A stretch of 64,000 bases of DNA from Amoebophrya sp. A120 (GCA_905178155.1 CAJINV010000009.1:2519373-2583372); one strand, 5' to 3'; positions 152 to 64,000 are shown, counted from the first letter of the stretch. Numbers and translations: made by a program. Notes: generated from the sequence alone by a model not told the origin.

Positions 152-315
152 TATGCAATGCAAAAGCATCGTACTAGTATAACTACAAGTACAAATGCAT
201 TACAAATTTCCTCAGCATGAGAAATAAAATTTGTAATGCAGATTTGCCTTGAAGACAAGATTTGTAAAAATGCAAGACTTGCATTTGTACGAGTACGATA
301 CTTTTGCACAGGATA
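152..315. mobile_element. Introner F1 (flanks do not match)
   Basis: TIR TGCAAAAGTATCGTACTCGTA type; flanks CCTCG/ACCTG. Confidence 0.85.
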
Positions 316-853
316 ACCTGCCGGGAAACGCCGGCGGTGCCCTTGCAGTTGTGGTCTTCTTCCCTTCTGTGGTCGAGGCAGAAAACAAGTTGGCAGCGGA
401 CGCAGGTTATCCTGTGCAAAAGTATCACACTCGTACTAATTGCAGTCATCCATGACAAATCTGGTTCCTAAGGCAAATCCGCATTACAAATTTAGTTTGT
501 AATGCTGAGCAAATTTGTAATGCAATTCATACTAGTACGATACTTTTGCAGTTCATACAGGTGAAGGGCAGAAAATCCTGCTGGTGGCACCCCGGGAAAG
601 CGCAGTGTGCGCCGATGTGGGCGTATGACCAGAAAAAAGTGTTACAGTTACACACATAGTCTATGCAAGACCGGCATCACAGACAGCCTTTCTCATGCAG
701 GAAATGCTTTGGATCCTCATTTCCTTCCTGTTTTCCCTTATGTTTTCTGCATTGCAAGTTCTCTCTCTCATGCAGAGAAAACTTGTGTTGCGGAATTGAC
801 AACAAATGTGCAACTGTAACACTTTTTTCGTGGGATAGGGCGAAATGGGTCAT
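316..853 (-). CDS. AN1-type zinc-finger protein, copy A (traceable part; 3' continuation unclear)
   Basis: After removing introners 624-837 and 408-557: MTHFAHIGAHCAFPGCHQQDFLPFTCVRCQLVFCLDHRREEDHNC (AN1 Cys/His pattern). Confidence 0.75.
408..557. mobile_element. Introner F1
   Basis: TSD CAGGT; empty site in AN1 copy B. Confidence 0.95.
624..837. mobile_element. Introner F12
   Basis: TIR GAAAAAAGTGTTACAGTT; TSD GGGCG; empty site in copy B. Confidence 0.95.
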
Positions 854-1417
854 GAGTGGTTCTTGTTTCTCGTGAAGACAAGAAATGCGAAGAGGATTAG
901 AAAAATTTCTATTTGGGATACAACTAGGAGGTCCTGATCATGTAGCTAGTATACAATTACAACTTTAGGGTTTTTATAATTTTTTCTCATACACATACTC
1001 CCCGTGGTATCATCTTACAAACAGACAAGCCTACTGGGTTGCGCAAGCATCTGCAGTTGCTTGTTGTATTTGCCTCGCTCCATACGTGCCTACATGATCG
1101 TCAGTTCTTTTCTCCGTATGAACCAGGCGGACGATGAAGACTCTTCTTGATGTCTGTTGATGCACATTGAGTTTTTCGCTCGCCCCCAAATGTTGCCAGT
1201 CAGTGCTTTATTTGCATTTCTGCTCAGCGTTCGCGCTCGCCTCAGTTGACGGTTTTTTCTTTTTGACTCGCTGTGTACTCCCCTCAACATGAAAATCTGC
1301 ATCGAGCACATTTATCCCTTTCGCGATTTCTCCTGAGAGCGACAGACCTTGCGCGAAGCACGCGACTCGTTGGAGATGTGCGACCTCTTCGCAATTGATC
1401 GTTTCGGTTGCGGTTAG

Positions 1418-2101
1418 TCATAGACCGGCTACTTGCCCATGGTCCTCTTCGCATCTGCCAAAAATGCATGTCAATGCGACGTAGCCTGCCTTCGCATTCG
1501 CATTAATACTCATCCATGTCACTTCCACACCCCTCCTATCAAGTGCTTCCTCCCAATTCCCGTCCCCTACGCACTTATTGTTGCTATTTGTTCCACCAGC
1601 ATCCGGAGACTGCGATCCGCCACTGTTTCGCCGCGAGTTTATACCACCAGCTGCGGATGCTCCTGCACCTGCCGGCCGGCACAGCCCGGGCGTGTTGGCG
1701 TGTCGCAACCACGTGACATTTTCGTCTTCGCCCGGGACTTTCTGAATTGTTAGATTGCAGATTGGGCAAATGATCACCTGTCGGGAAACGCCGGCGGTGC
1801 CCTTGCAGTTGTGGTCTTCTTCCCTTCTGTGGTCGAGGCAGAAAACGCATGCAATGTAAATTTTCGTTTTCCGTACATGTACAAAGTGCATGACAAATTT
1901 CGCTAACTTGCAGTGTCCAACTTGTCATGCTAGACTAGGATTGCAGGCAAGTTTTGTCATGCAGAGACTGCATTTGTATGTGTACGGGAAATTTACTGTG
2001 GATAAAACGAGCTGGCAGCGGACGCAGGTAAAGGGGAGGAAATCTTGCTGGTGGCAACCGGGATATGCGCAGTGCGCGCCGACGTGGGCGAAATGGGTCA
2101 T
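1418..2101 (-). pseudogene. AN1 zinc-finger copy B, truncated and fused out of frame to a duplicated tail of the LRR gene
   Basis: AN1 domain plus CPICN...WLRH knuckle after removing 1848-2004; below ~1565 it matches 2814-2860 in another frame. Confidence 0.6.
1848..2004. mobile_element. Introner F6
   Basis: TSD AAACG; empty site in copy A. Confidence 0.9.
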
Positions 2102-2813
2102 GAGTAGTTTTTCTTTCTTGTGAGGCAAGAAATGTTATGAGGATTAGAAAATTTTAAATTTCTACTGTGGGCACTACTAGGAGGTCCTGCTTATTAACAT
2201 GTAAGTAGTATACTTCAGGGTTATTTTATTTCTCATACACCTACTAGTCCCCGCATCATCTTACAAACAGACAAGCCTACTACAACTGGGTTGCGCAAGC
2301 ATCTGCAGTTGCTTGTTGTTTTTGCCTCGCTCAATACGTGTGTACATGATCATCACTTTTCTCCGGATGAACCAGGCATATGAAGACTTCTCGTGATGTC
2401 TGTTGATGTGCAATTCAATTTTTCGCTCGCCCCCGATGTTGCCAGAGCCAGCCAGTGCTTTAGCTTTATTTGCATTTCTGCTCCGCGCTCGCGCTCGCCT
2501 TAGTTGATGACGGTCCTCTTTTTTTTTATGTTTGAATCTCTGTATGCACCCCTCAAAACGAAAATATGTATCGAACACATTTCATCCCTTTCGAGATTTC
2601 TCCTGAACGCGCCAGACCTCGCACGAAGCACACGTCTCTTTGGAGATGCGCGACCTCTTCGCCATCGATCGTTTCGGTTGTGGTTAGTCATAGACCGGCT
2701 ACTTCCCCATCCCCATGGTCCTGCTCTTCGCATCTGCCAAAAATGCATGTCAATGCGACGGAGCCTGCCTTCGCATTGGCATTCTCGACGATGAAAATTA
2801 ATACTCATCCATG

Positions 2814-5800
2814 TCACTTCCACACCCCTCCAATCAAGTGCTTCCTCCCTATTCCCGTTCCCGGCACCACCCCAACATCCCTTCCCTTCAGAGGTATCAA
2901 ATGCAAATATGTCTGGGTCTGGAAACTTGTAATGCTGCATGGGGAATAGTGAATGTTCTGTAATGCCCAGCCAAGCATGAGAAATATCTGCGCTTCGCTG
3001 TGTTGCGTTTTTCGCATAACAAACTGCGTTTTTGCATCACAGACAAAAGGGTCTCTTCTTGGCCACGACGCATCACAAACTTTTTGTTTTTCTTCTGGTC
3101 ATCCCAGACAAGCATGACAACTCTCGCAATCTTCCAGACCCAGACACTTTTGCAGTTGATAAGCGGATTCCCCAGTCGATGCCGGTTCCCCCGAATGATT
3201 TTCGCGTTGACGAGCGGTTGCGTCGACCCGTACTGGTATCTTGGATTCGCGGACATGCTCATCGCATTCACAATGGAGGCGGCAGCCGAGGCTTGTTTCG
3301 CCTTGCTGTTTTTACTAGCAGTGGTGCCGAGAATGTCAAAAAAATCCCGGCTGTAGATGCTGCTTTCGTCGAAACAGGGTTCTTGTTCCCGGGAGGTCAT
3401 CTGCAGCTGATTCGTCATCTGGGGTCGACTTCTTGTTCGATTCTTGCCGGTCTTTCCGGTTCGCGACCCAGGGGTAGTAGCGGTCAACGCTGGACCCATG
3501 TAGTCGATGTTGGAGTAGAGGGGCGTGCTGCGACCGCCTTGTGATGCGGCGCTGCCAAGAAGCTGCGCTCCAGAAGTAGTACCCGAGATCATATCCCCGC
3601 CTGCAGGACTTCTTGCTCTCGTTTTTTCCTTCGGTGAAGCCTTCGACCTGCTCATTGAGGTTGATTGTGCGTAGTGGGGACCACCATTGGCTCGGTGTTC
3701 ATCACGCTCTACTGCACGTGGTAAGTTATGCCGCGAAGAAGTCGAGTAGTCGTGGGTCTGATGCCTGTGGTGTTTTGAAGCATCAGCACCCGCTGCTCCT
3801 GCTCCCGGTTTTCCGAAATGGTAATAGTGCAACTGGTGCTCGTTGGCCCTCTCCTCTGGCGAGTTCGGCTTTTTATCAAACAGAAAAGTGCTAAACGTTA
3901 GCGGTTTTCATAGATTGCAAATATGCATGACAAATTTTGCTTAACACATGCTATGCATGACAAATTTGGGCACGTTTTGTGGTGCGTTACTGCATCACAA
4001 ATCCCGTTAACGTTAAAACTTTTTCCTGTGATACTTTTGGAACCAAGACAAGGAACTGTCGTCGTGCGGATTCCACAGCTCTGGGTCGTTGTCTATGGCG
4101 TTCTCAAGCGTTACATTCTCAACTGTTACACGAGTTTGTGATGCAAGAGCAGCAATATGGAAAGGGGCAAGCTTGCGAGTCTCGCGTCACAAATTTAATT
4201 TGCAACAGATTTAGATGCTGTTTAACCTTTCGAGAATTTGTCATGCGAAGCACCTTAATCTTCTGGCAACTCATGGGAATTTTGCATGACAAATTCATGT
4301 AACAGTTGAGAATGTAACGCTTGAGAGCCCCATATTGTCGTAGCGGGTCTGCCAACGCGCGTGGATGGGTTGCTCCTATTTGGATGTTGTAGTGGTTGTG
4401 GGATAATTTGTTTTTGTATTGCATCTGGTGCATTTCTGTGTAAGTTTCGCATTCGCATCTCCGCATCACAAATACACTCACTTACAAAAAAAATCAAAAC
4501 ATTAGTATGTACCTGCTGCCTCCTGGCCGCGGCTCTGAACAGCCGGTTCGGAAGGCACATTTTTTTCAAATTCTCCCTGCGCGCACTCAAATTCGGAAAA
4601 AGCTGTGGTCCCAACGGCTCCTCGTCCTCGTCCTCTTCATCATCCAAATAGCCCCGTCGGGAAGAGGAGGAGTTATCGTTTTCTGTGGATTTTGAATTCG
4701 CCGCAGTGAACTTTTTTGACTCCAGAAAGCGCGCCACCGTTTCCTGGCGAATCTCCGACAACTCTTCAGCGTTCGCTGGAACAAAATTCTTGTGTTTTTG
4801 TGTCCTGCTAATGGTCCCGGCGGCAACACCCGGCGTTTTCAAATTAGAATTCGTGCCAGGAGGGAAGACGTAGGAATTAGAATAGTTGTTCTCTTCACCA
4901 CCGAATTGTTCTTCGTATGGCGATGCAGCAGCACTTCTTGTTCCCCTACTCCTACTCCCACTGCGACTCCGTCGCCCCCCGCCGCGTCCACCAAGATAGT
5001 ACTTCGGCGCGCCGTATCAAATGTAAAAATGTCTGGGTCCTCTGGAAGCTTGTGATGCTGGGTGGCGTCTCATGATGAGGCCACAAATGCTGGCTCAGCA
5101 TGACAAGTTTCTGAGCTTCGAGGTGTTGCCTATTCTGCATGACAAACTGCGTTCCTGCATCACAGAAAAATGGAGCTCTTGGGTAACGTGCATGACAGAT
5201 CTAAGAGTCATGCCAGACAAGCATGACAAACATGCATTCTTCCAGACCCAGACATTTTTACATTTGATACGCCGTGCCCGGGGTAGCCGAAGGGAAAGTG
5301 GTCTTTTCCGTACTGCTGTAGGTGATGCTTTTCTTTTTCCTCGATGATGTGCAAGCAAAGCTTATCGAAGAAAAAAGTGTTATCGTTATCGAATTCGCAA
5401 TCGCAGAGAAAGCCACTTTTTACCGGGTCGCGAAAAAATCGATAACAGCGAACATTTTTGGTCACTTTTACGCTGCAGTACCGCCGTGCCTAGCGTTTGT
5501 TATCGAATTTTCTAGGAGTCCAAAATGAAAATCGATAACAGCGACCATTTTTGGACACTTTTGCGCTGTAATTAGCCCGTGCTAGGACGTTTGTTATCGA
5601 ATTGGTTTCGGGCGCTACAGAAAGCCATGGACCCAAAACCAATTCGATAACAAACGCCCGGGGCCGTGCTGACTACAGCGTAAAAGTGACCAAAAATCGT
5701 CGCTGTTATCGAATTTGAGGGCGCGACCACAAGGAAATTCGATAACAAACGCCAGGCACGGCGGTACTGCAGCGTAAAAGTGACCAAAAACCTCCGCTGT

Positions 5801-8800
5801 TATCGAATTTTTTGCGACCCGGTAAAAAGTGGTCTTTTTTTCGATTGCGAATTTTTCGATAACGATAAACACTTTTTTGCTCGATAAAGCTGGAGGAACA
5901 CGTCGACGAAGCAGCTCGGCTCTTTCAGCAGTTGCCGGATCAGGTTCTGCTTAGAAATCATTTTCCTGTTACCCGTTTATGCAAGAAAAAAACTGTGTAA
6001 GTGTAAGTCTGTGATGCGAAGCGTGCAACACTGTTACACTTGTGCTTGTCATGCTAACCAACCATAAAATCCTATTCTATTTCTTGATGTGTTTTCATTT
6101 ACTAGGTGCGCATGACAGGCTTTGTCTATCATGCAGAACCGATTTGTCATGCTGTCACAGCAAGACACCTACACTAACACAGTTTTTTTCTTGGATACCG
6201 TTATTCCGTCCTTCATTCCATTATTTTCGAAGTAATTTTTCGGGTCGATGGAAAAATCCCGACCGGTATCCACAATACATTTCCCGCACACGTACAGATG
6301 CGGTCTCTGCATGACAAAACTTGGCTTCGATCCTAGTCTAGCATGACAGGTTTTACGCTCCAAAATGGTGAAATTTGTGATGTTGCATGTTGTACATGTA
6401 CGGGAAATTTGTATTGCATAGCCGGCTTTTTGCAGCGCCAACCGAACCACCTCCTCGTTCTCCGGTTTCGAGAGGAGCTGCTGCAGTTGGTACGCAAGAG
6501 ACCCATCGGGCCGCTCATCCAGAGGCGAAATCGTGCGGACTTCTTCGTGAGGACTGGTACTTTGCAGACGATTGTGGTACTGATGATCTATTCCTCCTGG
6601 CGTAGAAGTTTTCCTGCCTCTCGGTTCAAACCCAAACCCGAACCCGCTGGGATGGTGAACTCGGTTGGGACGGCGCCTCTCGTGACTCGGGGAGATCATG
6701 CGGTGGAGAAGGTCAAAGTGCGCTTTCCGAACACGGGAGGACGAGGGGGCTGAGTTAATTTTGGAAGTATAATCCGCAAATTGCACGGATAGGGACGAGG
6801 TTTGATTGTAATGCCTCAACAAAGGGCATCTTCGAGATGGAGTCGTTTGAGATTTTTGAGTAAATAAAGAAAGAAGCACGAGTCATCAAAACTGAACAGA
6901 GATTAGAAAGCACATACACGTCGCTTCCGCCGAAACGGACTGCAGCAGCACCGAGTCGCTATCCACAAAAAAAAACAACAACGAACCCCTATCCAATTTG
7001 TCATGCAAAAAATGTATGATGTCCTGTGTTTGTCATGCATGAAATGGATGGGGACGGTTGTTTTTTCCGGGATAATCGCCAAGCGCGTTGTAGTTCAACA
7101 TCCCTGGCTTCGAATGCCCCGACGCGTTTATGGGACTGAGATCCTCCACTTGTGGTCCTTCAAACGGCGCGCCGCTCGGCGATGCTTCAAACGCCGTGAA
7201 AAAAGGCGGCTGATTCATCTCGTCTTGCGCGGCTCCGTGGTCTTGATGTTGCGCAAATGAAGCTGAAGAAAGCGAGCCCTGTTGTAATACTGCTGAGCCG
7301 GCGCGACTTCCATTGTTTCCGGCACTTCTTGATGTTGCACTCGTCCGAGACGCGGCACTTGCTCGGATTTGGTCTGTCTTGCGGTGGTCAACTTGCGCTG
7401 CAGCCACCTCTTCGTCACTCTCTTCTACAAACCCCTTGTCTACTTCGTTCGCGCTAGCTCTGTTCACCGAGAAGTTTTGAATACGGGAAGATGTTGATCT
7501 TCCACCCATTCTACTTCCTTCCTGTTGCTCTCCTGGTACGGCCTCCCCGCGGCTTGCAGCACTACTTCTGGTCGTGGCGTGTACTCCTCCGTTCTCAGAA
7601 GCAGACGTCGGCCGGGGGTCGTAGAATTTCTCCTCTCCGTCTTGATGCGTCTCAGCATCAGCCCATTGCTGCTGCTCTTGGCTTTGCGAACCAGGACCAC
7701 CACCTCCACCTCCCGAGGGGGCAGAAGAGGAGGACGAGGATTTTTTTCCACCACTGCTCGCCGAAGACTTGCTACTCAAGGACTTCGATGGTGCACCAGA
7801 CGACTTATTCGACGAACTACTGCCCCCGTCATTCATAAACAGCACCGGTGGGGGTAGTTTTTGGCGGAAGTGGAAGTCGCTGTTCATTTTGTGGCCGTGT
7901 TTAGAGTCGTGAGGGTTTATTTGATGCAAATCTTGTTCCCGCTGCGTGTGCTGCTGCTGTTCCTCCTCTTGCCTCCATTTCCTCGCAGACCGCGCAGTAC
8001 TGGAGGATGACCCACCGGACTGGTAATTTGGAAAAAACGTTGTCTTCGGCGCGGTGGTCCTCGTGGTAGACGCGAGAATTTCCTTCTCCAGGTCGTAAAT
8101 CTCCGCTTCCACGCGAGAGATAGCCGCAGCCTCCTCCCCCACCTCCTCGAAGTAATCTTCATTGCCACCGTGACGACTTTGATCCTCAGAGCGCCCGTGG
8201 TTGTATTTGGTCGTCTTATTTTTCTGCTCAGCAGCTGCATCCGCTTCCGCATTTGGTGTCGCAGCTGAAGACATGAGCACCTCGTCCGCGCCGTGGTCCT
8301 CTAGGGACAATCGTTCTTGGTTTTTTACCACCACCTCCCGCGCAGTTTGTATCTGCATGCAGTCTGCTGCCGTTGCCGTGGGCAAGATTCCAGCCCGGAC
8401 TTGCTTCTGGATCGTTTTTCCAACTTCCTTCTGGTTGAAACGCTGGAGTTGCGGTACAAGGTACAGAATTTGGTACTCGATTTGAAGCTGCTGCCGAAGA
8501 ACATCATCATCGTGCAATAAGGACGCTGAGGGAGACGATGAAGAGAACGTAGTAGAGCTGTTGCTTTTACTTTGATTGCTGCTTTTTATCGCCGATAAAA
8601 TTGGATTCCGCCCCAAATCCAGACTCCTCAATTTCGGCAGCGTCGCGAGTTTCCCCGTCTCCACGAAGGAAGTTACTCTGTTGCCGGCCAGGTCGAGAAA
8701 CTCCAGCGCAGGGAAAGAGCTTGCTATGGTTTCGGGAATCGTGAAAAGCTCATTGTCGGAGATAAACAACTATGAATTGCAAAAGTATCCTATCGTACTC

Positions 8801-9635
8801 GTATAAATGCATAATTACAAATGATTTCCTCAGCATGAGAAATGAAAGATTGTATGGATTTGCCTTTAGAAAAAGATTTGTAGCGCATGATTGCAATTAC
8901 TACGAGCACGATACTTTTGCACAGGATAGCAACTGCGTTAAATCTGTCAGCGGGCCGAGGTGGTCGAAAGTCTTCAGCCTGCAACCGGTCAAGATAAGGA
9001 CCTTCGTTTTTTATTGAAAGAATGTATCTATACGTCACGAGAACAAAAAAACAAAACGAAGACATCAGCGTCTCAATGGGTCGTGTAGAGGAATGACCAG
9101 AGGGCTATTGAGTGCTAAATGATAAATTTGTTTCATCCCGAATAAACAAGATAAACATGATCAAAGCATCGCTTTTATGCTGGAGAAAAAAAAACGCAAA
9201 AAAGCAATTCGTCCTTACCTTCAATTTCGGAAAGAGAACTGGGATCCCAAATCGTTCCGGAGCTACGAAAAAATCAGAGTCAGCTACCGCTCTGTCGTGG
9301 GAAAAGTCCGCATCGAGTGTGTGGGAAAGGAAGGCTCGGATCGTTATGGTTACAATTGTGCCGGATTTGCTTTCTTCAGCACGTTGACGGTCCTCGTTGT
9401 CTCGCACTGCGTCGCAGAACCTCTGTGCCTCGCTGCAGCGGACGTTCCAGTTCGTGGGGGGCTCACCTCGGCGGCGGTTTCCGGTGGTTCTGGATTCGTA
9501 GTTATCAGCTGTGTGCTTTTGCAACAGCGGCCTGCTTGTGCTCTGCTCCGCGTCAAGAACACGACGATCCTCATCGTCCTGAGCGGCTACGAGAAAGGGG
9601 GCCAGGCAATCCAACAACAGAGACGAGGAGGACAT
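2814..9635 (-). CDS. Large protein with N-terminal leucine-rich repeats and long low-complexity regions (12 introns)
   Basis: Spliced frame followed by hand: PKLKVLILTGCRL, LTQLFISDNEL, LEFLDLAGNRV, LRSLDLGRNPI ... ends HLIGGVWK*; 9 introners, GT-AG introns 9002-9218 and 4376-4512, non-canonical intron ~6842-6919. Confidence 0.8.
2895..3161. mobile_element. Introner F2
   Basis: TIR TGTCTGGGTCTGGAA; TSD AGAGG/AGCGG. Confidence 0.9.
3874..4033. mobile_element. Introner F3
   Basis: TIR AAAAGTGTTAACGTTAACGG type; TSD CTTTT. Confidence 0.9.
4094..4334. mobile_element. Introner F4
   Basis: TIR CTCAAGCGTTACATTCTCAACTGTT; TSD TTGTC. Confidence 0.92.
5015..5269. mobile_element. Introner F2
   Basis: TSD CGCCG. 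Confidence 0.92.
5363..5886. mobile_element. Foldback introner F15
   Basis: Near-complete palindrome with TCGATAAC subrepeats; TSD AAGCT. Confidence 0.92.
5978..6197. mobile_element. Introner F5
   Basis: TIR CAAGAAAAAAACTGTGT; TSD CCGTT. Confidence 0.9.
6267..6420. mobile_element. Introner F6
   Basis: TSD ACCGG/GCCGG. Confidence 0.9.
6960..7074. mobile_element. Introner F7
   Basis: TSD GTCGC/ATCGC. Confidence 0.88.
8771..8928. mobile_element. Introner F1
   Basis: TSD ACAAC/GCAAC; splits an LRR. Confidence 0.92.
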
Positions 9636-12598: not shown

Positions 12599-12604
12599 AT
12601 TGGA

Positions 12605-34662: not shown

Positions 34663-36233
34663 GATCGTCGTGAAGTGCCGGGCACGGGAAGAAGAAAATA
34701 AAGTCATCCTGAAATGACACAAGTTGCTCGTATGGAATTCAGGTGAAATAGATGACAATAATCTACAACATAAACAGGGGAAAAACAAAAAATGGCAACA
34801 AGGTAGTGCTTATTTTAGTTGGTTTTTCAGGGGGTGGTGGTTATTTTAGTTGTTTTTTCAGAGGGTCGTAGATTTTGACGTCGAGTGGAAAAATCTCGAC
34901 AAGAAGAATCCTGTTTAGTTAAGCAGAATGTGGTGCGCGGTGCTTTTTAAATGAGTCTGTCAATGTTGACAGTGATGTCAGGCTGTTTTTGGATGTACGA
35001 AAATCGTGGTTACGAATAACAATAATCATTGCTCCTGTTCCTGTTGGAGGAAACGAAATAAGTACTGACGACCTGGACGAAGTACGACGAACGGGGGGAC
35101 GAACAGGAGACAGACCGACAACGGAAAAGAAAGAACGAAGGCAAGAGTCCGAGTTTTTTTTCTGTGCTATGATCCGGCTCCATACACATACAGTTCATTA
35201 CTTCATCTTCGTAAAAACGGACGAAGCTGGACGAAGATCAGAAAGAGAAACTACACCGCTGCTCGCCGGCGTGCATGAGAGACTACAAGACCAGGTTGAT
35301 AGAAAGCAAAACTTATTTTTAGCCGGTTTACGAGAACGATGCTACCTTCGTCTTTGATGTATTTTGCTTACTACGTAAAGCAACGAATAACGAAAACAAA
35401 AACATAAACTACTCCATGTGAAGAAATATAACGACGCGAATCAAGTAGCTTCTTCGATAGAATCATGCAACTCACACTGAGGATGGAGAGGACCCACTCC
35501 TGTGTGACCTCGAACTGAGGATGATATACCAGATCCAGAAGATAAAGATTTAGATTAGATACGACGAAACTAAGCACGACCAAGCACCACGTCAAGGCAG
35601 CGGGCGGTACGTCGACGAGGACGAGAGAGAGAATATTTATTAACGGGTTGCACAAGAATGGCCGAGACAAGTTTACGCCAATAACCAAAATTGATCCTCC
35701 CGTGGACCGTGAGACAAAGTCCATCCCGCTTCGTCATCAAGTGTCAACGTCAAGGAGAACACCAAAATAAATTCAGCCATGGGTGACCTCGTTCATCTCC
35801 GCAGCCGCAGCTACAAGAAAGATATAGGCAGCTACCCTGGTCGTGCAATTCTAATTTTTATTTTTCCTCGCAATATGATACTAGATTCTATACGCTCTTG
35901 AAAAAGTTGTCGTCAACTGACCGGGGTCGTACGTGAAGGACGATTTCATTTGTGATGACGCAATCGCGATTTATTTGAAGACGTCTTTGCATCTTCTGTC
36001 GAAAAAGCAACTTCTTGTTTCAACGATTTTTCCAGTGACTAGTTGTTACTTCTAGTACAACCAAGAAGCCTAGTACAACGTGGAGGTGAATTGGTTTTGA
36101 TTTTGAGTTTGTTGATCCTAGCTTTCAGTTTCACAACCTCGTACTCACAGCTCCGATCCTACTTACTTCAAAAAATCGTTCCGATGTTTTCCTGGAATCG
36201 CATCGTATACAAGTCGACTCATCCGTTTCCCTT

Positions 36234-55200: not shown

Positions 55201-58200
55201 TTGAACTTTTCGTCGGTGTGTAGCTTGTCGATTACTACTAAAACTCCCTTCGCTTGCGATAACTTTTCGGCACAAAACTTTTTCCAGATTGCGTCTTCTC
55301 TGATGTTCGACGCTACTAAACCGTACTTGCTTTCTGCACTGTCTGTCCACACCCCCTTCAGCAGTGGCGCTGCAGCTAAGATGGCCGCGTAACTAAACTT
55401 CTCGACCAACAAGAACGCGTTGGCTCTGCTTGAGATCTGCGGGCTCCTGTCGCCGTCACTCCTGTTCGGCGCCCAGTCGTCCTTGACCTGGGAGGGAGAG
55501 AGGAAATAATGTATGCTGCAGGTTTGTGGTGCAGTGCTGTATGTCTGTCATGCTCGTGCTGTGTGCACTTGGCTATTGCTCAATGTATTCTTGACTTAAC
55601 AAAGGGGGTTACCTTTTCTAACATCCTCCTCAGCTCTGTCAGCTCTTGCGGCGATTTTACCCCGATTCTATTGCACAGGTGGGAATCGTCAGCCGCTGCC
55701 CCTCTTGTGATCTGCAGCAGCGTCTTCATTACTCTGTCCTTGTCCACGAAGGATTTTGGCCAATTGAAATTGGCTTTGCTCGGCTCTAGCTTACATCCGT
55801 TCGGGTGATCCTTCAGCATGTCGCGCCATCTCTCTTTTCGCAATCTACCCTGCTGTCCAATTATCGTCACGTCGAAGACAAAATCCTTGGCTTTTTCTCT
55901 TCCGGCTTCAACTACTGTTTTGAAAGGCAACAGCACAGCTTTCGTCGTGCACGCAAAGTGTCTGTCGTTCTGGGGGCGGACTGATAAGAAATTTTTTGAA
56001 GAATGATATCAAAGGGTCTGTATCATTGTTTTCATGACAATGTGCATAACTCATCATCAGAAAAACAGAAGAGAAAGGAAAAGCACGGTCTTCTAGTTCG
56101 CCTTCTTCCATCGCTGCTAAGCCTTTTACTAGCGTGACTTCGACTTCGTGTTTTGCTTGCACAAAGTCAATCGGGTTCAGGTCTCCTTTTGGGTCTAGAG
56201 CCGTGTACTTCCTGACGTTGTGCGGGATCGCATTTTGCTCGTCGAAAGGGACATCGTAAGCGGTCGGGTCTCCTTCCATTATGTAGTGGTATGCGACTTC
56301 CATTTGCTGCTCTGTGACTACTGCTTTTTTGGCGTCCTCTTCTGTTTTGGCGAAAAGTAAATCAAGAGCTGACACCATGGTGTTTTGGTTCTGTGCTTGC
56401 CTTGGGTATGCGTGCTGCTTTTTCTGCTTTTTCCCCAACACCATGTTGCTCGGGTATGTTGCTTTGTTGCTGTCGTCACTGTCGCTGCTATCGCTACTGC
56501 TATCGTTGCCGACAGCTACGCCATTTTTCTTGCTTTTGCTGCTAAACTGACTGAAGAAGTTTTTGTGTGCACTGGAGGAGCTAACTTGTGCTGCTCCTGC
56601 TGCCGAGGAAGCTGCTGCTGTATTCGATGATGACGAGGCTGCTGCTCCGAAACCTAGGAAAGACTGTAAGCTTCCTGCGTTCGTTGGGTTGAGAGGGTGT
56701 GCTGGATTGCTTTGTGGGATGTATTGCTGCTGTGCTTTTTTGCTGTTTGGCTGTAACTTGCTCGCCCAGCTTGCTGTTTCTTGCTTTACCTGGCCCTGCA
56801 AAGACTGGTCGGTGCTATCTGGCTGTGCTAGCTGGAACTTTCTCCTGATGCTACCGGAGAAGTCTAGCTGTAATGCTGATTTCTTCGGGGCTGATATGGA
56901 CTTCGACAAGTCTACTTCGGGCTGCTGTGGTGGTACAAATTTCTTGCTCCATGCTGCTGCGAAGTCGGAGAAAGTCGTGTACGCGATCCCTGCCCATGGC
57001 CAGCTCGGTGCAAGGCCGTTCGCTTTGCTGGTTAGGTCGTGAAAGTCATGGACGTTCCACCCGAGCCGCTTTTTGCCGCCCTCCGACGACAAATCCAGCC
57101 CTGCGATTTTGGTGTGCCCCAGGTTGAGGATTTCTTGTATGGCGTCCGGCAGTAGCTCGGTGAAGCGGTCCCTTCCGTAAATGTCCTTGTCCCTCGCTGC
57201 GCTTTCTGGCGCTGTGACCAGAATCTGCGCTCTCATTGTCCTGATATTTGAAGAGAAGGGGGGAATATTAATGCGTGTCGGCTTCGATAAATGTGCTGTC
57301 ATTAGCTGCTTTGCTAACAAAAATAGGCTGTATGCTAAAAATACCAAATCATCTGCTGAATGAGTCCCATCGTTGATCTGGTATTGACGTGCACAAAAAC
57401 GCCGTTTACGTGCTTCGGGAGTTGTGAGATTTTGCCGTCGCACACTTTGTTCACAAAGAGCGAGAAGATTTTCCTGATGTAGGCTGCTAGCTTCACTCCC
57501 GCGTCACCTACTATTGCGCCGAAGGCTTTTGACGGTGAGGCGTAGTCGATTCCGTTCGCTTTACATGCACCTTCCGCCATGGCTTGGATCATCATTGGTC
57601 CGTTGTCGTGCGCATACAGCGACGTCTTGACCAGTGCTGTGCAGATTATATCCGCCATCGCCTGCAGGTTCTGCAAGTCCAGCTCATCTCCCTCATTGAT
57701 GTTGGCTAGTTTTTCTACTATCAGGCGCTGCACCGACTTATTGTTCGGTAGTATGGAGATCCCATCTGCGTACTGGGCTGGGTCGCTGAGAAAAGCTTCC
57801 CAGGCTTGTCCTGCTTTCTCATTGAAGATGGTCGCGTTCTCCATTGAGGTGAACTGCTTTGGAGGCTCGCACTGCGAGACTGCGTCTGTGATGCGAATCG
57901 TACCAATCTGGAAGTCTTTGTTTGCCTCGGTTGCTGAGGTGTCATCCGCCGGCGTAAGCTGCTGATCTGCTCCCCCAGCTAGCTTTTGTTGCTGCTGGTT
58001 TTTGTCTCCCGACATCTTCGATTTTTCTTTATCCTGTGCAATGTTCTTCTTGGACGACGATGCTCCGGCCGGTGGACCGCTTGGCGGTGCGTCCGGAGCG
58101 CCGCTTCCCGGTTTTTGGTCCGGGCCCTGAGAAGACGACGAAGCTGTCATCCTTCACTTACTAAACTCAAAACAACTACACGTAGGTAACTGCCGCTAAG

Positions 58201-61200
58201 GCTTTTTTCATGGAAAGGGTCACATGGGAGTTCCGGGCACGCACGAAAACGCAACTCAAACTGTGATTTCCGGATCTTACACACTGACACTGATAGCTCT
58301 GTATACGATTGCATGTGCTGTTATGTCTGCCTTGTGTGGTGCCGCACCTTCTACGAACGAACTGTCATCTTGCAACTTCCAAAACCAAGAGAAAACGGTC
58401 TACCATGTCTAGACGCTGTGCCGTAGAGAATTCAACATCAAGCTTGAATGAAACAAGCTGGCAGGCTTACGTAGCCGGTGGTGAGGGCTTTGATTTTTGG
58501 TCCGTAGCAACATGTACATCTACATTAAAAGTTTTTCTTGTTTCAAATCAGCTGCGTTTTTGGAATCGAGTATTCACTTTCCATCTAAAATTTCTTCTGC
58601 CGGTGCTGTCAATTTGTATTTGCACCCTTTTTTCATGGATCCATTCACTACGTATGTCAAGAATTCTTTTTCTGTCGTAGACCAGAAAACATTTCCCGAC
58701 TCGTAATAACGCAATCCTGGCCTCGGGATTTCATGCACCGCCACTGGGGAGGTAGTTGTCCGCAAGAAATTTTGAATCAGCGGGTGTATGTTCTGGATAT
58801 CCTTCAGGGTACGGACCTGGGAAATGTATTTTGGTGGTGTGCAATTTCTTTGCATCGCATGCTGGTGTCCATCATGAGTGTGATGTAAATTTTGGCACTC
58901 ATGCCAGACATGGAAGCTAATATGAACTGTACCTCTATTGTGTCTTGTATCATTTTTCCGAAGAAGGCTCTTTCGACTGTTCCGCTGGCCCGGCAGCATT
59001 GAGATAGTATCGCATGTGCTATCATCGTCGATAAAGCATTTGCTCTTTCGGTTTTTGTCAGTACGTGCTCAGCAGGCTTTCCGAGCGCCGACATGATATC
59101 AAACCTGTATGGTGTGTCGAAGTGTATTTGATGGAAGACAGGTATGCATTACTGAAAGCATCTGCCCACAGAAAAGCATCAGGAACTGTGAAAATCATGT
59201 ATGATTCTATACTTTTCTGGTTTTTTCCGGATCAGACCGAAACCGTATCGCTCTATCGTGTCTTGCTCGCGGTTCGTGCTATCGGATGTTGTGTCGATGA
59301 TATCGCTTTCATCATCGCTGGAGACTGCACTCCCTCGAGCTGTAGGCTGCTCGTCCGCTCTGGAGCTGCAGCTTCCCATTGTAGAATCTTACTGGATGGC
59401 GATGCTTCAACAAAAAATAAAAGAAACGGGGTATTTTATAGGCTGTGTTTAGCTGCTAATCGCTATTTTTAACACATACATGCGGCGTCCACTCTCACAC
59501 ATGTACCTAAGCTGAATTGTATGAAAAATTACTTTCCTCCCTTGCTAGAAGAAGAAGAGGATCCGCCTGAGCTGGACGATTGCGCACCGGGCAGTCCGAA
59601 TGCGTACCGCCCTGCTTTTTCATACTTCTTTTTCATATCTTCGTCCATCGTCTTGGAATACATCTTCGCTAGGTTCAAAACCTTTTCTCCTAATTCTTCT
59701 AATTCTTCGTCTTCGTACGCCACGAAGTACGGTTCTTTGGAGAGATGGGTAGTCAATTGGGATGCTAATTCCGTAGTCGTGGTTCCAGTGGCCTGTCCTC
59801 CCATGACCGGGACGAACCCGGAGGTAGTAATGCCATCGGTCCTACGCTTGGTGCACACATACTTGAAGTGCTTAAGTTCCTGGGACATTTGCAATTCTGG
59901 TAGAGCAAGCTTTCCTCGCAAAAAATAAATCTTCGCTGCACACTCGGCACAAAAAGTCATCCAGTTCGGGAAAACAGTTTGCACCATGGCGGGGTTTAAG
60001 TCCACCCACAACTCATCAATCAACTCACTATAAGCCGCGACCTTGGCGCTGAGCGCCGGGATCACTGTGGTGATAGCGAACTGCGCCAAGGATCTGTACA
60101 CATGCAGCAGTTTCTGGCTCTGTCCTTCGGACAGAATCGGAACACGAGTTCCGTCGGTGCCTAAGTGGGAGTTGTGCTTAGAAGTAAGATCATTCATGAA
60201 GATCCCGGCTGCATTAGATCCTAAATCATCTTTGCCACCATTTTTGACCAGGTCCTCAAGCAGGCTCAGGATGCTAGCCCCCTGCTTCCCCACTAAATCA
60301 GCTAAGTTGTCACATTTCCCGACACGCATCGCTTCGCAATTCTTGATAGAAACGTCGTGGCTGATGCCACTCATTTTCCAATCTTGCTTTTGTCAAAGTG
60401 AAACTCGATAACGGCTGAAATGTTAATAAACAAAAACTTACTGCTAGTTGCTGCTAAACTTGCTGTTCTTTCTTATGCTAAGACTAGTTTCTTCGTTAGA
60501 TTTGAGTATCTACGTGGACGCCGCTTCTGTGCTAGGAGGAATCAATCGCTGACTGTTTTTGGGAAATTGCATTTAGTCTGTATCTGACTCAACATCCGCA
60601 TCAATGCTATACTCATCCGCTAGCTGTCCGTCCGGTTTTTCGATTTTTTCCTTTTTGATCCTGGTGTGTAATTCGGAGATTCTCACCCGTGTTCTGAAAG
60701 CTAAATTTGATCTGCCATGACAATAGAAAGTGCACGGCGGGGGTGGGCTGATGTCGTAGTTGAAACTTCTTATGCACGCTTCGTGCATCTGGTGCTGCTC
60801 TACGAAGTGCCTGTTGAAGATCTGTCGTGCTCGTTGCGAGCCGGAGAAGGCATACAAATCCGCCCAGGTGATTGCTCTTTGATCGCAGATGGATGTTTCT
60901 AGCTCTATGTTGTACAGAGATTCTATATCCTCTTCTAACTCTTTGCACAAGCGGTCACTGTGCATGAAAAGTTTGTATCTTGTGTAGTTCCGCTCCGTTT
61001 GGAACTTTGCCTCGTAGGCTTTCAGTCTGTCTCGTTCTCGGGTGAAAGTCAACTTTTGCATCCACAGGATTCCCACTGGGCAGACCATCTTGGGTAGCAC
61101 GAACATCTGCTCCGCTAAACCGTATCTCGCGCTGTACTGCGTGCGCAGGATCACTTCCACTTCGAAGAAAGCCTCTGGCAGACCTGATGAGTCGTTGGCC

Positions 61201-64000
61201 GGGAATAATATGCTCGCATGTGTCATGTGCTCGCATCATGCAGCTTTATGAATGTATCCGCTAAAAAGGGGACTAATCTATACCAAAAATCTCCGCTGTT
61301 CCTAGCTTCGCCCATATCTTTTCGTCCTTGGGCTCTGGTATCCACTTGGCGCGCACTGCATACACCTGCGCTTTCAGTGGGTTGCTGTTTTCGTACTTCA
61401 CTGGCGGGAGGTATGCTGCCCGTGGTGTCCTGTGCAGGAAGTCCGGCAGTGGTCTGCCGTCTCCTACCGCTCTCCCCTGCCACAAGTAGTCCGTGTTTAT
61501 TCTTGGGACCGGGAAATTTATCAGACCCATCGATTTGTCTGACTGCTGCCATAATTCTGCTTTTGTCTTTCGGATATCTACTACTGGTGACAGCACCGAG
61601 CCTTCGAGGCCCGGCGCATACCCGACGTGGCGGGGCATTCTGTGCTAAACTGTTTCTGGTTATGAGATGGTAGAAGAAAAATCCAAGCTCACTAATGTTT
61701 TCTCTCATGCGTCGTGGTATCTCTGCTCTGTGTCTCAGCTTTGAACTCTCTGCTTGCATACTATGTCTATTTGCGAGCATTCTGCTTGCCTGGTGTCGAA
61801 CAACGAAGCGACAAGGGCTAGTTCTGCCGTGAACTGCCTACAGTGGTACGATTGCCAGCTTGGTCTAAGCTTTCCAAGATGAACTGCCTGCTGCCTACTA
61901 GTAACGCCACAACATGGTTGTAGCGAGGGGCTCGCTTGCGCGATTTACTATCCAGGGCGTGACTGTGACAAAGGTATCCTTCTCGTCAATCTGACGACCA
62001 TCGTCGATCAGAAATCCGAGAGGGCGGTGTCCCCTCCAGAAAACACCCCTCCTCCCCTAATTCGTCCACGAGAACCGAAGTCCTGGTGTCAGAAAAAGGA
62101 GTGAAGGTTGACCTAATGGTATACCAATGTCTGATATAAATCCAGAAAACTGAAAAAATATCCAGAAATCCCAGCCGGGGCTGTAAATGAATGTATGAAC
62201 GATGAATATGAACGAGACCGATCTTGCTGACGATGCTTTCACTCGAAATATTTATCCCGTAAACATAAAACTCTGTGTCTGTCATGCAAGAACTGGATGG
62301 GGATTGGTTTTTTTCTGTGGATACGTTTCTCCCGGCGCAACCTCGTTCCCGTAGATGGAAAGTTTCGTCCAGTGTCGCAGATCCCGCCAGATTATAGCGC
62401 TCTCAAGCGTTACACTCTCAACTGTTACATGAATATGTAATGCAAGTAGAATGGCAAAAGTGAAAGGAAAATGAAAAGGTTGCGCCTTTTGCATTACAGA
62501 TTTGGAGCAGATTAAAATGCTATCTAGCGCGTCGAGAACTTGTCACGCGAAGCAGCTTCATCATCATCGTCATCATGTAGTGGACACCCGCTCCCAGCGC
62601 CACAGGTCAAGGATCCCCTCCCCGGGGGGTGGGCAATTTTGCATGGCAAATTCATGTAACAGCTGAGAATGTAACGTTTGAAAACCCCATACCGATCGCG
62701 TTGTGTTTCGGCGCTTCGAGCAGTTCCGCAGTAGATTCCACAATCGGAGTCGCTAGGTGGATCGGTTCAAAAAGCGCTATATTGATTAACGGCGGTGACG
62801 CACACCAGTTGCAATCATGCATGACAGATCTTCTCTGTGTATCAATATCATGCATCCTAGGCTAGACAAATTTGAGCAACATCAAAATTTCCCACGCGCA
62901 CTTACTGCATGCCAAAACGACCCGTTATTAACGCTAACACTTTTTGGTTCTATGATAAGGTGGATCATCAAGTCAAAATTCCCGATGTTCTTGTCTTCGT
63001 GCAGAAACTGTAAATATCCTGTGCAAAAGTGTCGCATGATTCGTATAAATGTATTACAAATTTCCCCAGCATGAGAAATAAAATTTGTAATGCGAATTTA
63101 GCTTGAGAACAAGATTTGTAATGCATGTTTGCGATTACTACGAGTACGATACCTTTGCACAGCATAGCAAGGTCCGCGCGACAATGGGGGTGGACGGCGC
63201 TAGCGGCTCCAGGATCGCGAGGACCCCGGGCTGGACATCATTTTTTCCAGCCGCATTTTCATCCTTCGAGGAAAAAATCTTCAGCGTTCGCTTCGTGTCC
63301 CGCGCTATCGCCTCTTCCCAGTCTGTATCAAAGGCAAAAATGTCTGGGTCTGGAAGAATGCACGACTTGTCATGCTGCTTTTCCATGACCCATGGGGTCT
63401 GGAATGCAGGACCTAGCATGACAGATTCTGTGCGATCTCTCTCAAGCCTATCCTGCATGAGAAAGTCCCTCCCGACTTGGTCAAAACTGGACGACTTTTG
63501 GATTTTTGCATGCTTCAGATTTAGCATGACAAGGAAGTTGCAATCTTCCAGACCCAGACATTTTTACATTTGATAGTCTGGTCTTTTTCCCAACACCTCC
63601 ATAATCTGGGGCGTACAGGGGAAGGGAAACACCGTGCCAATGTTTTCGTGGGGTTTTTTTCCGTAGTTTTTCGTATTTTCATTCGAGGAAGCTGAAGATC
63701 GAGACCCAGACGTCGCAGTTGCTGATGTGGTGTCGTAATTGCTATCGCTGGAAGATGCTATCACGATGTCGTGGTTTCCCAAAGACGTTACCACACCGTT
63801 GCACACGACAAACCTACCAGTTTCCTCCAGGATGGTTTTTGTAGAAACCCGCTCTTCGGCTTCGTCATGTTGAGCATCGGATTTCAGCGAATCCTCGCCA
63901 GCACCTTCACCTTGTGGTCGCGTATCAATGTGTTTCGCGAAGAACTCCGTTACATTCGGGAAATGGATCACGGACACTGCGCCGCGGGTTGGAGTGCTGC
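43267..64000 (-). CDS. UGGT: UDP-glucose:glycoprotein glucosyltransferase, 3' part (GT24 domain), continues beyond the window
   Basis: DLDNL, IHIFSVASG-YER, KQRLIWAYKILFLD, IIFIDADQIV, GYWK, YHISALFVV, NSLSNLDQDLPN, WLFCETWC, DLCQNPLTKE; C-terminal REEL. Confidence 0.95.
43752..44053. mobile_element. Introner F10
   Basis: TSD CAAAG/AAAAG; splits YHISALFVV. Confidence 0.9.
44671..44833. mobile_element. Introner F3
   Basis: TSD GTCGG. Confidence 0.92.
44892..45036. mobile_element. Introner F1
   Basis: TSD TGAGC; splits KQRLIW. Confidence 0.92.
45241..45925. other. GC-rich insertion of unknown class between duplicated UGGT exons
   Basis: Abrupt GC shift; no TIR seen; TTAACCCGAGAACA twice at the right end. 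Confidence 0.5.
45989..46137. mobile_element. Introner F1 in the duplicated exon
   Basis: TSD TGAGC. Confidence 0.9.
46602..46858. mobile_element. Introner F11
   Basis: TSD GCCAG. Confidence 0.9.
46964..47115. mobile_element. Introner F1
   Basis: TSD TTCGC. Confidence 0.92.
48085..48329. mobile_element. Introner F4
   Basis: TIR present; TSD diverged TCCTA/TCCCC. Confidence 0.85.
48531..48846. mobile_element. Introner F10
   Basis: TSD TTGTC; splits DLDNL. Confidence 0.9.
48898..49082. mobile_element. Introner F1-like
   Basis: TSD AGCTC. Confidence 0.88.
49200..49471 (-). repeat. Split direct repeat B2
   Basis: Copy of 49620-49895. Confidence 0.95.
49501..49618 (-). repeat. Split direct repeat A2
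   Basis: Copy of 62145-62262. Confidence 0.95.
49620..49895 (-). repeat. Split direct repeat B1
   Basis: Matches 49200-49471 apart from ~3 substitutions and a 4-bp indel. Confidence 0.95.
50278..51639 (-). CDS. Tyrosine recombinase of the retroelement (2 GT-AG introns; start uncertain)
   Basis: TGLRPSA, YGVRRS, HFGW...TY catalytic-like motifs; introns 51269-51377 and 50591-50694 restore the frame. Confidence 0.75.
51653..54123 (-). CDS. Reverse transcriptase / RNase H (5' end unresolved)
   Basis: DDLASAYWQ, LNFG, YVDDL, ILG, FTDAA, YEA, VDN, ADATTR; GT-AG intron 53691-53789. Confidence 0.92.
54465..58150 (-). CDS. Gag-position protein of the retroelement (4 GT-AG introns)
   Basis: Five ORFs join in frame via introns 57241-57443, 55981-56086, 55488-55612, 54887-55009; Gly/Lys-rich stretch and Cys/His cluster at the C-terminus. 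Confidence 0.75.
59529..60374 (-). CDS. Accessory ORF in the retroelement, 281 aa, unknown function
   Basis: Long ORF, globular composition, co-oriented with pol. Confidence 0.65.
   Translation of the reverse strand: MSGISHDVSIKNCEAMRVGKCDNLADLVGKQGASILSLLEDLVKNGGKDDLGSNAAGIFMNDLTSKHNSHLGTDGTRVPILSEGQSQKLLHVYRSLAQFAITTVIPALSAKVAAYSELIDELWVDLNPAMVQTVFPNWMTFCAECAAKIYFLRGKLALPELQMSQELKHFKYVCTKRRTDGITTSGFVPVMGGQATGTTTTELASQLTTHLSKEPYFVAYEDEELEELGEKVLNLAKMYSKTMDEDMKKKYEKAGRYAFGLPGAQSSSSGGSSSSSSKGGK
60573..61226 (-). CDS. Accessory ORF in the retroelement, 217 aa, unknown function
   Basis: ATG-initiated ORF overlapping the stop of the upstream ORF (ATGA). Confidence 0.6.
   Translation of the reverse strand: MTHASILFPANDSSGLPEAFFEVEVILRTQYSARYGLAEQMFVLPKMVCPVGILWMQKLTFTRERDRLKAYEAKFQTERNYTRYKLFMHSDRLCKELEEDIESLYNIELETSICDQRAITWADLYAFSGSQRARQIFNRHFVEQHQMHEACIRSFNYDISPPPPCTFYCHGRSNLAFRTRVRISELHTRIKKEKIEKPDGQLADEYSIDADVESDTD
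61223..61780 (-). CDS. Possible accessory ORF in the retroelement, 185 aa
   Basis: ATG ORF coupled to the next ORF; no recognisable motif. Confidence 0.4.
   Translation of the reverse strand: MLANRHSMQAESSKLRHRAEIPRRMRENISELGFFFYHLITRNSLAQNAPPRRVCAGPRRLGAVTSSRYPKDKSRIMAAVRQIDGSDKFPGPKNKHGLLVAGESGRRRQTTAGLPAQDTTGSIPPASEVRKQQPTESAGVCSARQVDTRAQGRKDMGEARNSGDFWYRLVPFLADTFIKLHDAST
62145..62262 (-). repeat. Split direct repeat A1
   Basis: Identical by eye to 49501-49618. Confidence 0.95.
62393..62691. mobile_element. Introner F4
   Basis: TSD CAGAT/CCGAT. Confidence 0.9.
62760..62957. mobile_element. Introner F3 (degenerate)
   Basis: TSD AGGTG; repeat extends to AGGTGGATC. Confidence 0.8.
63015..63166. 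mobile_element. Introner F1
   Basis: TIR clear; TSD diverged GTAAA/GCAAG. Confidence 0.88.
63326..63575. mobile_element. Introner F2
   Basis: TSD GTCTG. Confidence 0.92.

What the first reader, a model, noticed from the sequence alone, without database searches (positions are those of the whole stretch)
152..63575. About 15 unrelated TIR families follow one grammar (5-bp TSD, TAT...ATA ends) and act as orientation-independent non-GT-AG introns
Seen: 73 elements interrupt exonic sequence, including UGGT and SP-RING motifs. At the junctions I translated, removing element+5 nt restores the frame. There is no fixed GT/AG at the ends, TSD sequences are arbitrary, and the same family occurs in both orientations within same-strand genes (F1 408-557 vs 8771-8928; F7 6960-7074 vs 32074-32196). 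Established: introners with inverted and direct repeats forming non-canonical introns are known in Amoebophrya, and how they are removed is unresolved as far as I know. Inference: excision is specified by a strand-symmetric signal (TIR stem plus direct repeat), either by a modified spliceosome, a separate RNA cut-and-ligate system, or DNA-level excision.
Basis: partly seen in the sequence, partly recalled or inferred. Interest (0 to 1): 0.9.

Follow-up and report, generated by a model that had tools for sequence, protein, structure and literature searches.

The report
Transposon ends act as splice ruler
These are already-described small jumping-gene inserts of the marine parasite Amoebophrya A120 that are missing from the spliced gene products whichever way round they lie, and the cuts appear to fall one base before and four bases after each insert, likely made by an altered spliceosome.

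Summary
Window exons are 100% identical to A120 proteins. I count 74 elements (5-bp repeat, TAT...ATA ends); 51 repeats are perfect. Element+5 is absent from likely-RNA contigs (17 elements) and from 58 of 58 junctions in four database proteins, while DNA contigs keep the elements. Both orientations occur in 24 of 24 clusters.
Corrections: the families are not unrelated (shared TAT-N7-AAAA end and a GCATnACAAA motif in 69 of 72). The direct repeat is not required: one with 1 of 5 matches is still removed exactly. The signal is read directionally.
Not found in the papers searched: 14 imperfect repeats all fit one register, intron = N-TAT...ATA-N4. The first T (intron +2) never varies (0 vs 12 at the mirror site, 301 elements). 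There is no G or AG preference and no G:U excess in the stem.
Best reading: a ruler measured from the transposon ends, likely used by a U1-less spliceosome (0.55); a Euglena-like separate system 0.3; DNA excision 0.03.

The parts
152..63575 (.). 74 TAT...ATA introner elements, each flanked by a 5-bp TSD: 152-315, 408-557, 624-837, 1848-2004, 2895-3161, 3874-4033, 4094-4334, 5015-5269, 5363-5886, 5978-6197, 6267-6420, 6960-7074, 8771-8928, 11854-12135, 12216-12375, 12436-12598, 12757-13027, 13109-13343, 13439-13691, 13846-14103, 14205-14354, 15051-15372, 15424-15696, 16048-16228, 16378-16636, 16845-17150, 17255-17526, 17620-17876, 18318-18670, 18812-19111, 21973-22970, 25115-25265, 25326-25476, 25622-25874, 27069-27219, 27725-27874, 28002-28210, 28257-28560, 28599-28762, 28911-29172, 29255-29431, 30909-31187, 31257-31564, 32074-32196, 32392-32626, 32667-32810, 33921-34129, 36321-36577, 36846-36994, 37089-37238, 37288-37603, 37739-37889, 37938-38166, 38248-38396, 38827-39097, 39341-39504, 39878-40139, 40166-40332, 40722-40992, 43752-44053, 44671-44833, 44892-45036, 45989-46137, 46602-46858, 46964-47115, 47441-47619, 48085-48329, 48531-48846, 48898-49082, 49149-62323, 62393-62691, 62760-62957, 63015-63166, 63326-63575
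18808..19112 (-). Intron as actually removed around element 18812-19111: 1 base before the TAT and 4 bases after the ATA. The repeat has only 1 of 5 matches. This is the one junction that fixes the register alone.
   Evidence: X1 contig piece starts at 19113 and the 1499-nt gap is exact; P0003 reads NADEKGKRP, which fits only this register
21973..22970 (-). Family-1 element swollen by an 850-bp nested insert (about 22095-22944). Removed whole as 1003 nt. Happens to be GT-AG in the inferred register.
27069..27219 (-). Family-1 element in the orientation opposite to 21973; removed as 156 nt
29255..29431 (-). Imperfect-repeat element; the contig keeps the downstream copy of repeat position 5 (cut before position 5)
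   Evidence: X1 piece starts at 29433
39878..40139 (-). Imperfect-repeat element with a TAC 5' end; the protein keeps upstream positions 1-4
   Evidence: P0002
62393..62691 (-). Imperfect-repeat element; the protein keeps upstream position 4
   Evidence: P0001
43752..44053 (-). Imperfect-repeat element; the protein keeps downstream position 5
   Evidence: P0001
13109..13343 (-). Element with two repeat mismatches; the cut falls after position 2, 3 or 4
   Evidence: P0003
49149..62323 (-). About 120-bp introner (6960/32074 family) split by a ~13-kb insert with imperfect inverted ends; a 13.2-kb intron in the UGGT model
   Evidence: perfect CGTTT repeats; P0001 joins across it; halves align to 6960-7074; not seen in RNA contigs
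51656..53782 (-). Reverse-transcriptase-like ORF of the nested insert
   Evidence: RVT_1 E 4e-5, below Pfam cut-off
43270..63998 (-). 3' part of the UGGT gene (P0001, 1948 aa); 15 element junctions
36237..41039 (-). SP-RING (PIAS-like) gene, P0002, 676 aa; 12 elements plus one canonical GT-AG intron (about 39645-39811)
24974..34809 (-). Gene of P0004 (2122 aa); 16 elements
12608..23235 (-). Gene of P0003 (1955 aa); 15 elements
2817..9010 (-). Gene region with 9 elements and canonical-looking GT introns; no database protein fetched
320..2150 (-). Tandem duplicate giving three reciprocal empty sites (elements 408 and 624 absent from copy 2; 1848 absent from copy 1)

Best explanation
These are Amoebophrya A120 introners, short TIR transposons with a 5-bp target duplication that are absent from spliced products as element+5 in either orientation, and they are likely cut from the pre-mRNA by a modified major spliceosome that measures from the transposon ends: likely one base before the 5' TAT and four bases after the 3' ATA. 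Shown: insertion with a TSD at arbitrary sequence; removal of exactly element+5; both orientations; no G or AG preference. Inferred from 14 imperfect repeats: the fixed register N-TAT...ATA-N4. Inferred: the TIR's TA stands at intron +2/+3, as in GTA donors, with +1 free. The A-run of the opposite TIR reads as a U-tract 15-19 nt before the acceptor. The acceptor is set by distance from the 3' end rather than by AG, possibly from the conserved A at -7 acting as branch point (speculative, about 0.25). Both ends carry the same sequence, so either orientation offers both signals, and every insertion leaves the mRNA unchanged. Mobilisation is likely by one kind of integrase-like DDE transposase recognising the shared ends and the internal GCATnACAAA repeats (inferred; no transposase found).
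For: Removal: the X1 contigs skip 21968-22970 and 27064-27219 directly. Two gaps match 9 and 6 further elements+5 to the base (1499 and 417 nt). 58 of 58 junctions in P0001-P0004 fit +5. Register: all 14 informative junctions fit a cut after repeat position 4; lower bound from 18812, 39878, 62393; upper bound from 18812, 13109, 43752, 29255. The chance that the other 13 fit under a random register is 0.003. Farhat's commonest A120 ends are all NT-NN and A25's TT-NN. Direction: in 301 oriented elements the first T varies 0 times against 12 at its mirror (p 0.0005; 0 vs 8, p 0.008, in the independent 227). The A at -7 varies once against 9 at its mirror (p 0.02; 1 vs 6, p 0.125, in the 227). The window's canonical donors begin GTA. 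The spliceosome is nearly complete but U1 was not found in A25 or A120, whereas the canonical-intron strain Kv has U1. A U2 spliceosome removes MITE-derived non-canonical introns in Fritillaria. Fixed branch-acceptor distances of -6 and -8 exist in Yarrowia and Trichomonas.
Against: No residual spliceosomal preference: G at +1 in 99 of 301 (background 0.30, p 0.23) and AG at the end in 23 of 301 (background 0.07, p 0.65). Intron +5 is C more often than G at the 5' end in the loci (157:63 vs 124:89, p 0.005; not seen in the window), opposite to a canonical G+5. The -7 A has a poor branch context (U two bases upstream in about half). The geometry (1 and 4 nt spacers) parallels Euglena introns (3 and 5-6), whose authors favour non-spliceosomal factors. 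Only one junction fixes the register alone; 11 of the 14 rest on gene models only, built by BLAT/Gmove. The RNA status of X1 is the tool's guess, and X1-X3 are one sample. Repeat positions 3-5 are better conserved than 1-2 (29, 19, 10, 11, 10; p 0.002), which a pure ruler does not explain. End variants within families may not be independent.
Confidence: 0.55

Rival explanations
1. Same ruler, but a separate non-spliceosomal cut-and-join system (Euglena-like) recognises the TIR hairpin and cuts 1 nt 5' and 4 nt 3' of it, releasing circles or linear introns.
For: No GT or AG residue at all. A terminal stem forms in the MFE of 280 of 293 elements (z -5.3 and -2.6 for two examples). Euglena's code has paired triplets with a 3' spacer 2-3 nt longer, the same offset.
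Against: No RNA-level tuning of the stem: G:U 246 vs C:A 246 in the transcript frame, and antisense folds as well (285 of 293); power is limited because many mismatches are inherited. In 27069 the terminal triplets are unpaired in the MFE. TIR position 4 is C:C or G:G in 108 of about 300. U1 loss coincides with these introns, which a separate system would not need.
Confidence: 0.3
2. The cut slides within the direct repeat, or is found by matching the two repeat copies.
For: Repeat mismatches are rarer at positions 3-5, next to the junction.
Against: 18812 (1 of 5 matches) is removed exactly; 14 of 14 informative junctions fit one register; mismatches at positions 3-5 are not enriched for synonymous changes (12 of 31). 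The window alone has 7 mismatches at position 5.
Confidence: 0.1
3. Programmed DNA excision (ciliate IES-like) in some life stage.
For: Precise removal leaving one repeat copy; X1's RNA status is only guessed.
Against: X4 contigs run into element ends at depth 21-27, equal to unique sequence (X4 may be the window's own source). A second assembly also keeps the elements in ORFs. End constraints follow the direction of transcription. Farhat's introns are RNA-seq supported.
Confidence: 0.03

Closest known systems
Amoebophrya A120 introner elements (Farhat et al. 2021, PMC7789003)
   Same: Same genome and the same elements: IR starting TAT, 7 nt, 3 or more A; 3-5-bp direct repeats; many families; non-canonical ends supported by RNA-seq.
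   Different: That paper leaves the splice border unknown or variable. In the parts I read it gives no orientation test, fixed register, end asymmetry or shared internal motif (figures not visible).
Euglena nonconventional introns (Nomura et al. 2025, PMC12501133)
   Same: MITE-like; complementary triplets at fixed spacing from the cuts; longer 3' spacer; slidable direct repeats; co-exist with GT-AG introns.
   Different: CDG/CH'G with spacers 3 and 5-6 and a purine exon start, against TAT/ATA with spacers 1 and 4; circles reported there, untested here.
Fritillaria borealis non-canonical introns (PMC13326754; review PMC11282704)
   Same: TIR/TSD-bearing introns, most non-GT-AG, removed by a U2-type spliceosome.
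   Different: Preferred ends (AG-AC, AG-AT) and exonic TAC; U1 kept; duplicated U2AF.
Polarella and Aureococcus introners (10.1101/2020.10.14.339549; PMC9860276)
   Same: DNA-transposon introners, several classes creating introns in either orientation.
   Different: They recruit G-initial donors and AG acceptors from the TSD or element and show orientation bias; here the TSD is arbitrary and no cluster is biased.
Ginger2/Tdd integrase-type DNA transposons (PMC2836005)
   Same: TIRs; 5-bp TSD in TDD-4/5. Integrase-like TIR introners are reported in A120 (PMC12130899).
   Different: TGTNR termini, against TAT here; no transposase found.

Membership tests
Amoebophrya A120 introner elements | Lies in the A120 genome | tested here: met
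   Exons 100% identical to NCBI 'Amoebophrya sp. A120' proteins
Amoebophrya A120 introner elements | IR starts with TAT, 7 variable nt, 3 or more A | tested here: met
   Profile; a few families have a weaker A-run
Amoebophrya A120 introner elements | 3-5-nt direct repeats at the borders | tested here: met
   51 of 74 perfect 5-mers, 72 of 74 with 2 or fewer mismatches
Amoebophrya A120 introner elements | Repeated families, removed from transcripts with non-GT-AG ends | tested here: met
MITE / non-autonomous TIR DNA transposon | TIRs and a TSD proven by empty sites | tested here: met
   Three paralogous empty sites
MITE / non-autonomous TIR DNA transposon | Cognate autonomous transposase with the same ends | tested here: inconclusive
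   None among 59 long ORFs from 412 kb of loci or 9 window ORFs; whole genome not held
U2-type spliceosomal intron | GT/GC donor | tested here: not met
   GT in 99 of 301 at the inferred register, at background; T at +2 in 301 of 301
U2-type spliceosomal intron | AG acceptor | tested here: not met
   23 of 301, at background
U2-type spliceosomal intron | Lariat via a branch A; snRNP dependence | not testable with these tools
   Needs lariat sequencing or inhibition; no raw reads of this strain were available
Euglena nonconventional intron | N3-CDG ... CH'G-N5-6 signature | tested here: not met
   N1-TAT ... ATA-N4
Euglena nonconventional intron | Complementary end motifs at fixed distance from the cuts, longer on the 3' side | tested here: met
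   14 of 14 informative junctions
Euglena nonconventional intron | Excised as circular RNA | not testable with these tools
   no data
Ginger2/Tdd transposon | TGTNR termini | tested here: not met
   TAT ends
Ciliate IES (features recalled, no call) | Removed from somatic DNA | tested here: not met
   DNA-like run X4 and a second assembly keep the elements; other life stages not examined

The most novel reading that the evidence does not exclude
A120 has its own splicing code, N-TAT...ATA-N4, read by machinery that ignores GT, AG and the exon sequence altogether. This would be a non-spliceosomal RNA cut-and-join system convergent with Euglena's, tuned to the ends of one transposon superfamily so that every insertion, in any sequence and either orientation, is erased from the mRNA, even with 13 kb nested inside.
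Probability: 0.3. Interest if true: 0.88.

Novelty: already known. Interest (0 to 1): 0.55.

Why it matters
The elements are published, but how more than 60% of this parasite's introns are removed is open, and the splice border was left undefined. A fixed register gives exact predicted intron ends for tens of thousands of introns. That tells a lariat or circle search where to look (branch at -7, or a circle of element+5), and it names the bases to mutate (+2 T, -7 A, spacers 1 and 4). If the spliceosome does it, it works without U1, without G+1 and without AG. If it does not, a second eukaryote lineage has independently built a Euglena-type system.

Tried and rejected
No whole genome was held, so there was no genome-wide transposase or snRNA search. 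No holder was on record as RNA. Raw RNA reads X7 and X8 (same species label) do not cover the window's exons: 88 and 0 reads laid, nearly all on one element end with foreign flanks. They are no test. The second lay (46301-63700, X1-X3, likeness 99) laid only short element pieces, with no exon contigs and no joints. It is uninformative, its lack of cover is not used, and the UGGT junctions and the 13-kb intron rest on the gene model only. The joints table was filled by repeat chimeras from X4; only 8 X1 pieces were visible. The internal GCATnACA motif as branch point was rejected: sense 238 vs antisense 233 elements, same distances. G:U excess in the stem: none. Stop codons as a register test gave only two cases, at positions 1-2. 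Sliding cuts predict synonymous enrichment near the junction: not seen. No element end in viral contigs. The loci hold no ortholog of the window's genes. Dataset S2 of PMC12130899 has no hit for 'Amoebophrya'; it was not read further and may bear on family classification. The snRNA alignments and Figs S19-S25 of Farhat are images and were not seen; Fig. S23 may bear on the register. Roy 2023 Curr Biol is not held; its preprint does not mention Amoebophrya. Two look-ups of earlier findings returned nothing.
Full report
1. Observation. A scan for TAT...ATA pairs with a terminal inverted repeat found 38 with a perfect flanking 5-mer and 12 with one mismatch; five shuffles gave 0 and 0-1. Relaxed and homology searches plus hand curation gave 74 elements, mostly 115-353 nt. 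Removing element+5 places 64 of 74 in ORFs of 200 aa or more, against 38-41 for out-of-frame controls, and rebuilds minus-strand ORFs of 1988 and 2162 aa. A tandem duplicate at 320-2150 gives three reciprocal empty sites with the 5-mer once, so the repeat is a TSD.

2. Identity. Two exon queries hit NCBI proteins of Amoebophrya sp. A120 at 100%. Two more unnamed proteins match the UGGT gene and the 24974-34809 gene. Farhat et al. 2021 (PMC7789003; abstract, sections 10-12, 16, 25, 32, supplement parts 2-3; figures not visible) describe A120 introners whose IR starts with TAT, seven variable bases and at least three A, with 3-5-nt direct repeats and 1,954 families. They report 65% non-canonical introns, borders 'unknown', U1 not detected and no transposase in A120. 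The finding is that system.

3. Removal. Contigs of run X1 (guessed RNA by the tool; 41 Mb against 106 Mb for X4) skip 21968-22970 and 27064-27219, each element+5. Two longer gaps equal the genomic span minus 9 and 6 elements+5 exactly (1499 and 417 nt). That is 17 elements from one sample. X4 contigs run about 25-30 nt into element ends at the depth of unique DNA; X4 may be the window's own source. In four database proteins 58 of 58 junctions fit element+5. The duplicated pair 44892/45989 matches the same peptide and counts twice. The in-frame alternatives +2 and +8 fit 0 of the 42 tested. Canonical GT-AG introns occur in the same genes.

4. Orientation and relatedness. Family 1 is removed in both orientations in X1 (27069 and 21973). 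A pattern scan gave 153 loci (412 kb) of a second assembly with the same families. An automatic finder recovered 61 of 74 window elements, with no extras and none in shuffles, and gave 341 unique elements in the loci. 227 could be oriented by a codon model and 114 were dropped. All 24 clusters with 4 or more members hold both orientations and none is biased. The families share TAT-N7-AAAA ends and an internal GCATnACAAA motif (1 mismatch allowed) in 69 of 72 window and 224 of 225 locus elements: 16.3 per kb against 0.38 outside, most often 31 nt apart. The motif has no strand bias relative to transcription. It is more likely a DNA-level (transposase) site than a branch point, and it makes 'unrelated' wrong.

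5. Where the cut lies. Write the transcript as U1-U5, TAT...ATA, D1-D5; the product keeps U1..Uk and Dk+1..D5. Fourteen imperfect repeats constrain k. 18812 gives only k=4 (contig and protein). 39878 and 62393 give at least 4; 32074 at least 3; 13439, 28911, 47441 at least 2; 14205, 38827, 39341, 48085 at least 1; 13109 gives 2-4; 43752 and 29255 give at most 4. Only k=4 fits all. With 18812 set aside, the chance under a random register is 0.003. Three of the 14 have contig support; the rest rest on gene models built from BLAT-aligned transcripts. The intron is thus N-TAT...ATA-N4. Farhat's commonest A120 ends are all NT-NN, and A25's TT-NN, though aligner bias could contribute. Because 18812 has 1 of 5 repeat matches and is still cut exactly, repeat identity is not required.

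6. Directional read-out. In 301 oriented elements the first T varies 0 times and its mirror 12 times (p 0.0005; in the independent 227, 0 vs 8, p 0.008). Position 2 varies 2 vs 5 (n.s.). Position 3 varies 9 times at the 5' end but once at the 3' A, which lies 7 nt before the acceptor (p 0.02; 6 vs 1, p 0.125, in the 227). G:U wobble would explain part of the first pattern but predicts the reverse of the third. Against my reading: G at +1 and AG at the end are at background; intron +5 is C-biased in the loci; repeat positions 3-5 are more conserved than 1-2 (29, 19, 10, 11, 10), and the window and loci disagree at position 5 (7 vs 3). The stem forms in 280 of 293 MFE structures, but equally on the antisense strand, with G:U 246 vs C:A 246.

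7. Mechanism. Shown: TSD-forming insertion at arbitrary sites, removal of element+5, both orientations. Inferred: cuts measured from the ends (about 0.85). Machinery: I favour a modified U2 spliceosome (0.55). TA at +2/+3 matches the window's GTA donors, the opposite TIR supplies a U-run, and U1 is undetected in the two introner strains but present in canonical strain Kv (PMC12005148, passages). Fritillaria is a precedent (PMC13326754, abstract and introduction), and fixed branch-acceptor distances of -6 and -8 exist (PMC2483917, passages). The -7 A as branch point is speculative. The main rival (0.3) is a Euglena-like system: there the tested code is N3-CDG...CH'G-N5-6 with fixed spacers, the same 2-3-nt offset (PMC12501133; abstract, passages, section 8). 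For mobilisation, 5-bp TSDs fit TDD-type integrase transposons but the TGT ends do not (PMC2836005, passages); integrase-like TIR introners are reported in A120 (PMC12130899, passages). I found no transposase.

8. Novelty. The elements and their grammar are already known. Either-orientation introners are known in Polarella and Aureococcus, with G/AG sites (preprint 10.1101/2020.10.14.339549, passages; PMC9860276, passages; review PMC11282704, section 6; diplonemid paper PMC12621601, passages). I did not find the fixed register, the end asymmetry or the shared internal motif in the listings of searches or in the parts of papers read. The library lacks most subscription papers, and Farhat's figures were not visible. 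Verdict: real, already known, with an added testable rule; interest 0.55.

Noticed in passing
window 49204-62262: A ~13-kb insert with imperfect inverted ends and an RT-like ORF (51656-53782) plus several ORFs without Pfam hits, nested inside a ~120-bp introner of the UGGT gene. DIRS-like layout is a recalled resemblance, not tested. It holds no introners itself.
   Followed up: partly
window 22095-22944: An 850-bp GC-rich insert with AGAGG/CCTCT repeats nested in a family-1 introner; removed with it in the X1 contig.
   Followed up: partly
window 11788-12609 and 24974-25487; 10963-11589 and 24179-24817: The tail of the P0004 gene is duplicated (about 90%) behind the P0003 stop. Paralogous elements 12216/25115 and 12436/25326 predate the duplication. 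P0003 and P0004 are paralogues (54% over one domain).
   Followed up: partly
window 44834-45239 and 45931-46321: A duplicated short UGGT exon, each copy with a family-1 element at the same site but with different element ends; which copy is used is unclear.
   Followed up: no
window 2-937 and 1421-2134 (-): Tandem copies of a small Cys/His-rich ORF (AN1-type zinc finger by recalled motif, not tested) differing in three element insertions.
   Followed up: partly
window 5363-5886: A 524-bp, highly palindromic element with internal tandem repeats; one of three lacking the shared internal motif.
   Followed up: no
window 9100-11800, 23400-24900, 34900-36200, 41100-43200: No elements were called in these intergenic stretches, so the elements concentrate in coding sequence (66 of 74 in coding-scored ORFs).
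   Followed up: no
loci L001-L153: Phase of the first repeat base is biased in the second assembly (49, 71, 107) but not in the window (22, 23, 21).
   Followed up: no
run X7 on window 25622-25655: About 85 raw RNA reads carry a family-2 element end with foreign flanks, while the window's exons are not covered: the family also occurs in RNA of another sample or strain.
   Followed up: no
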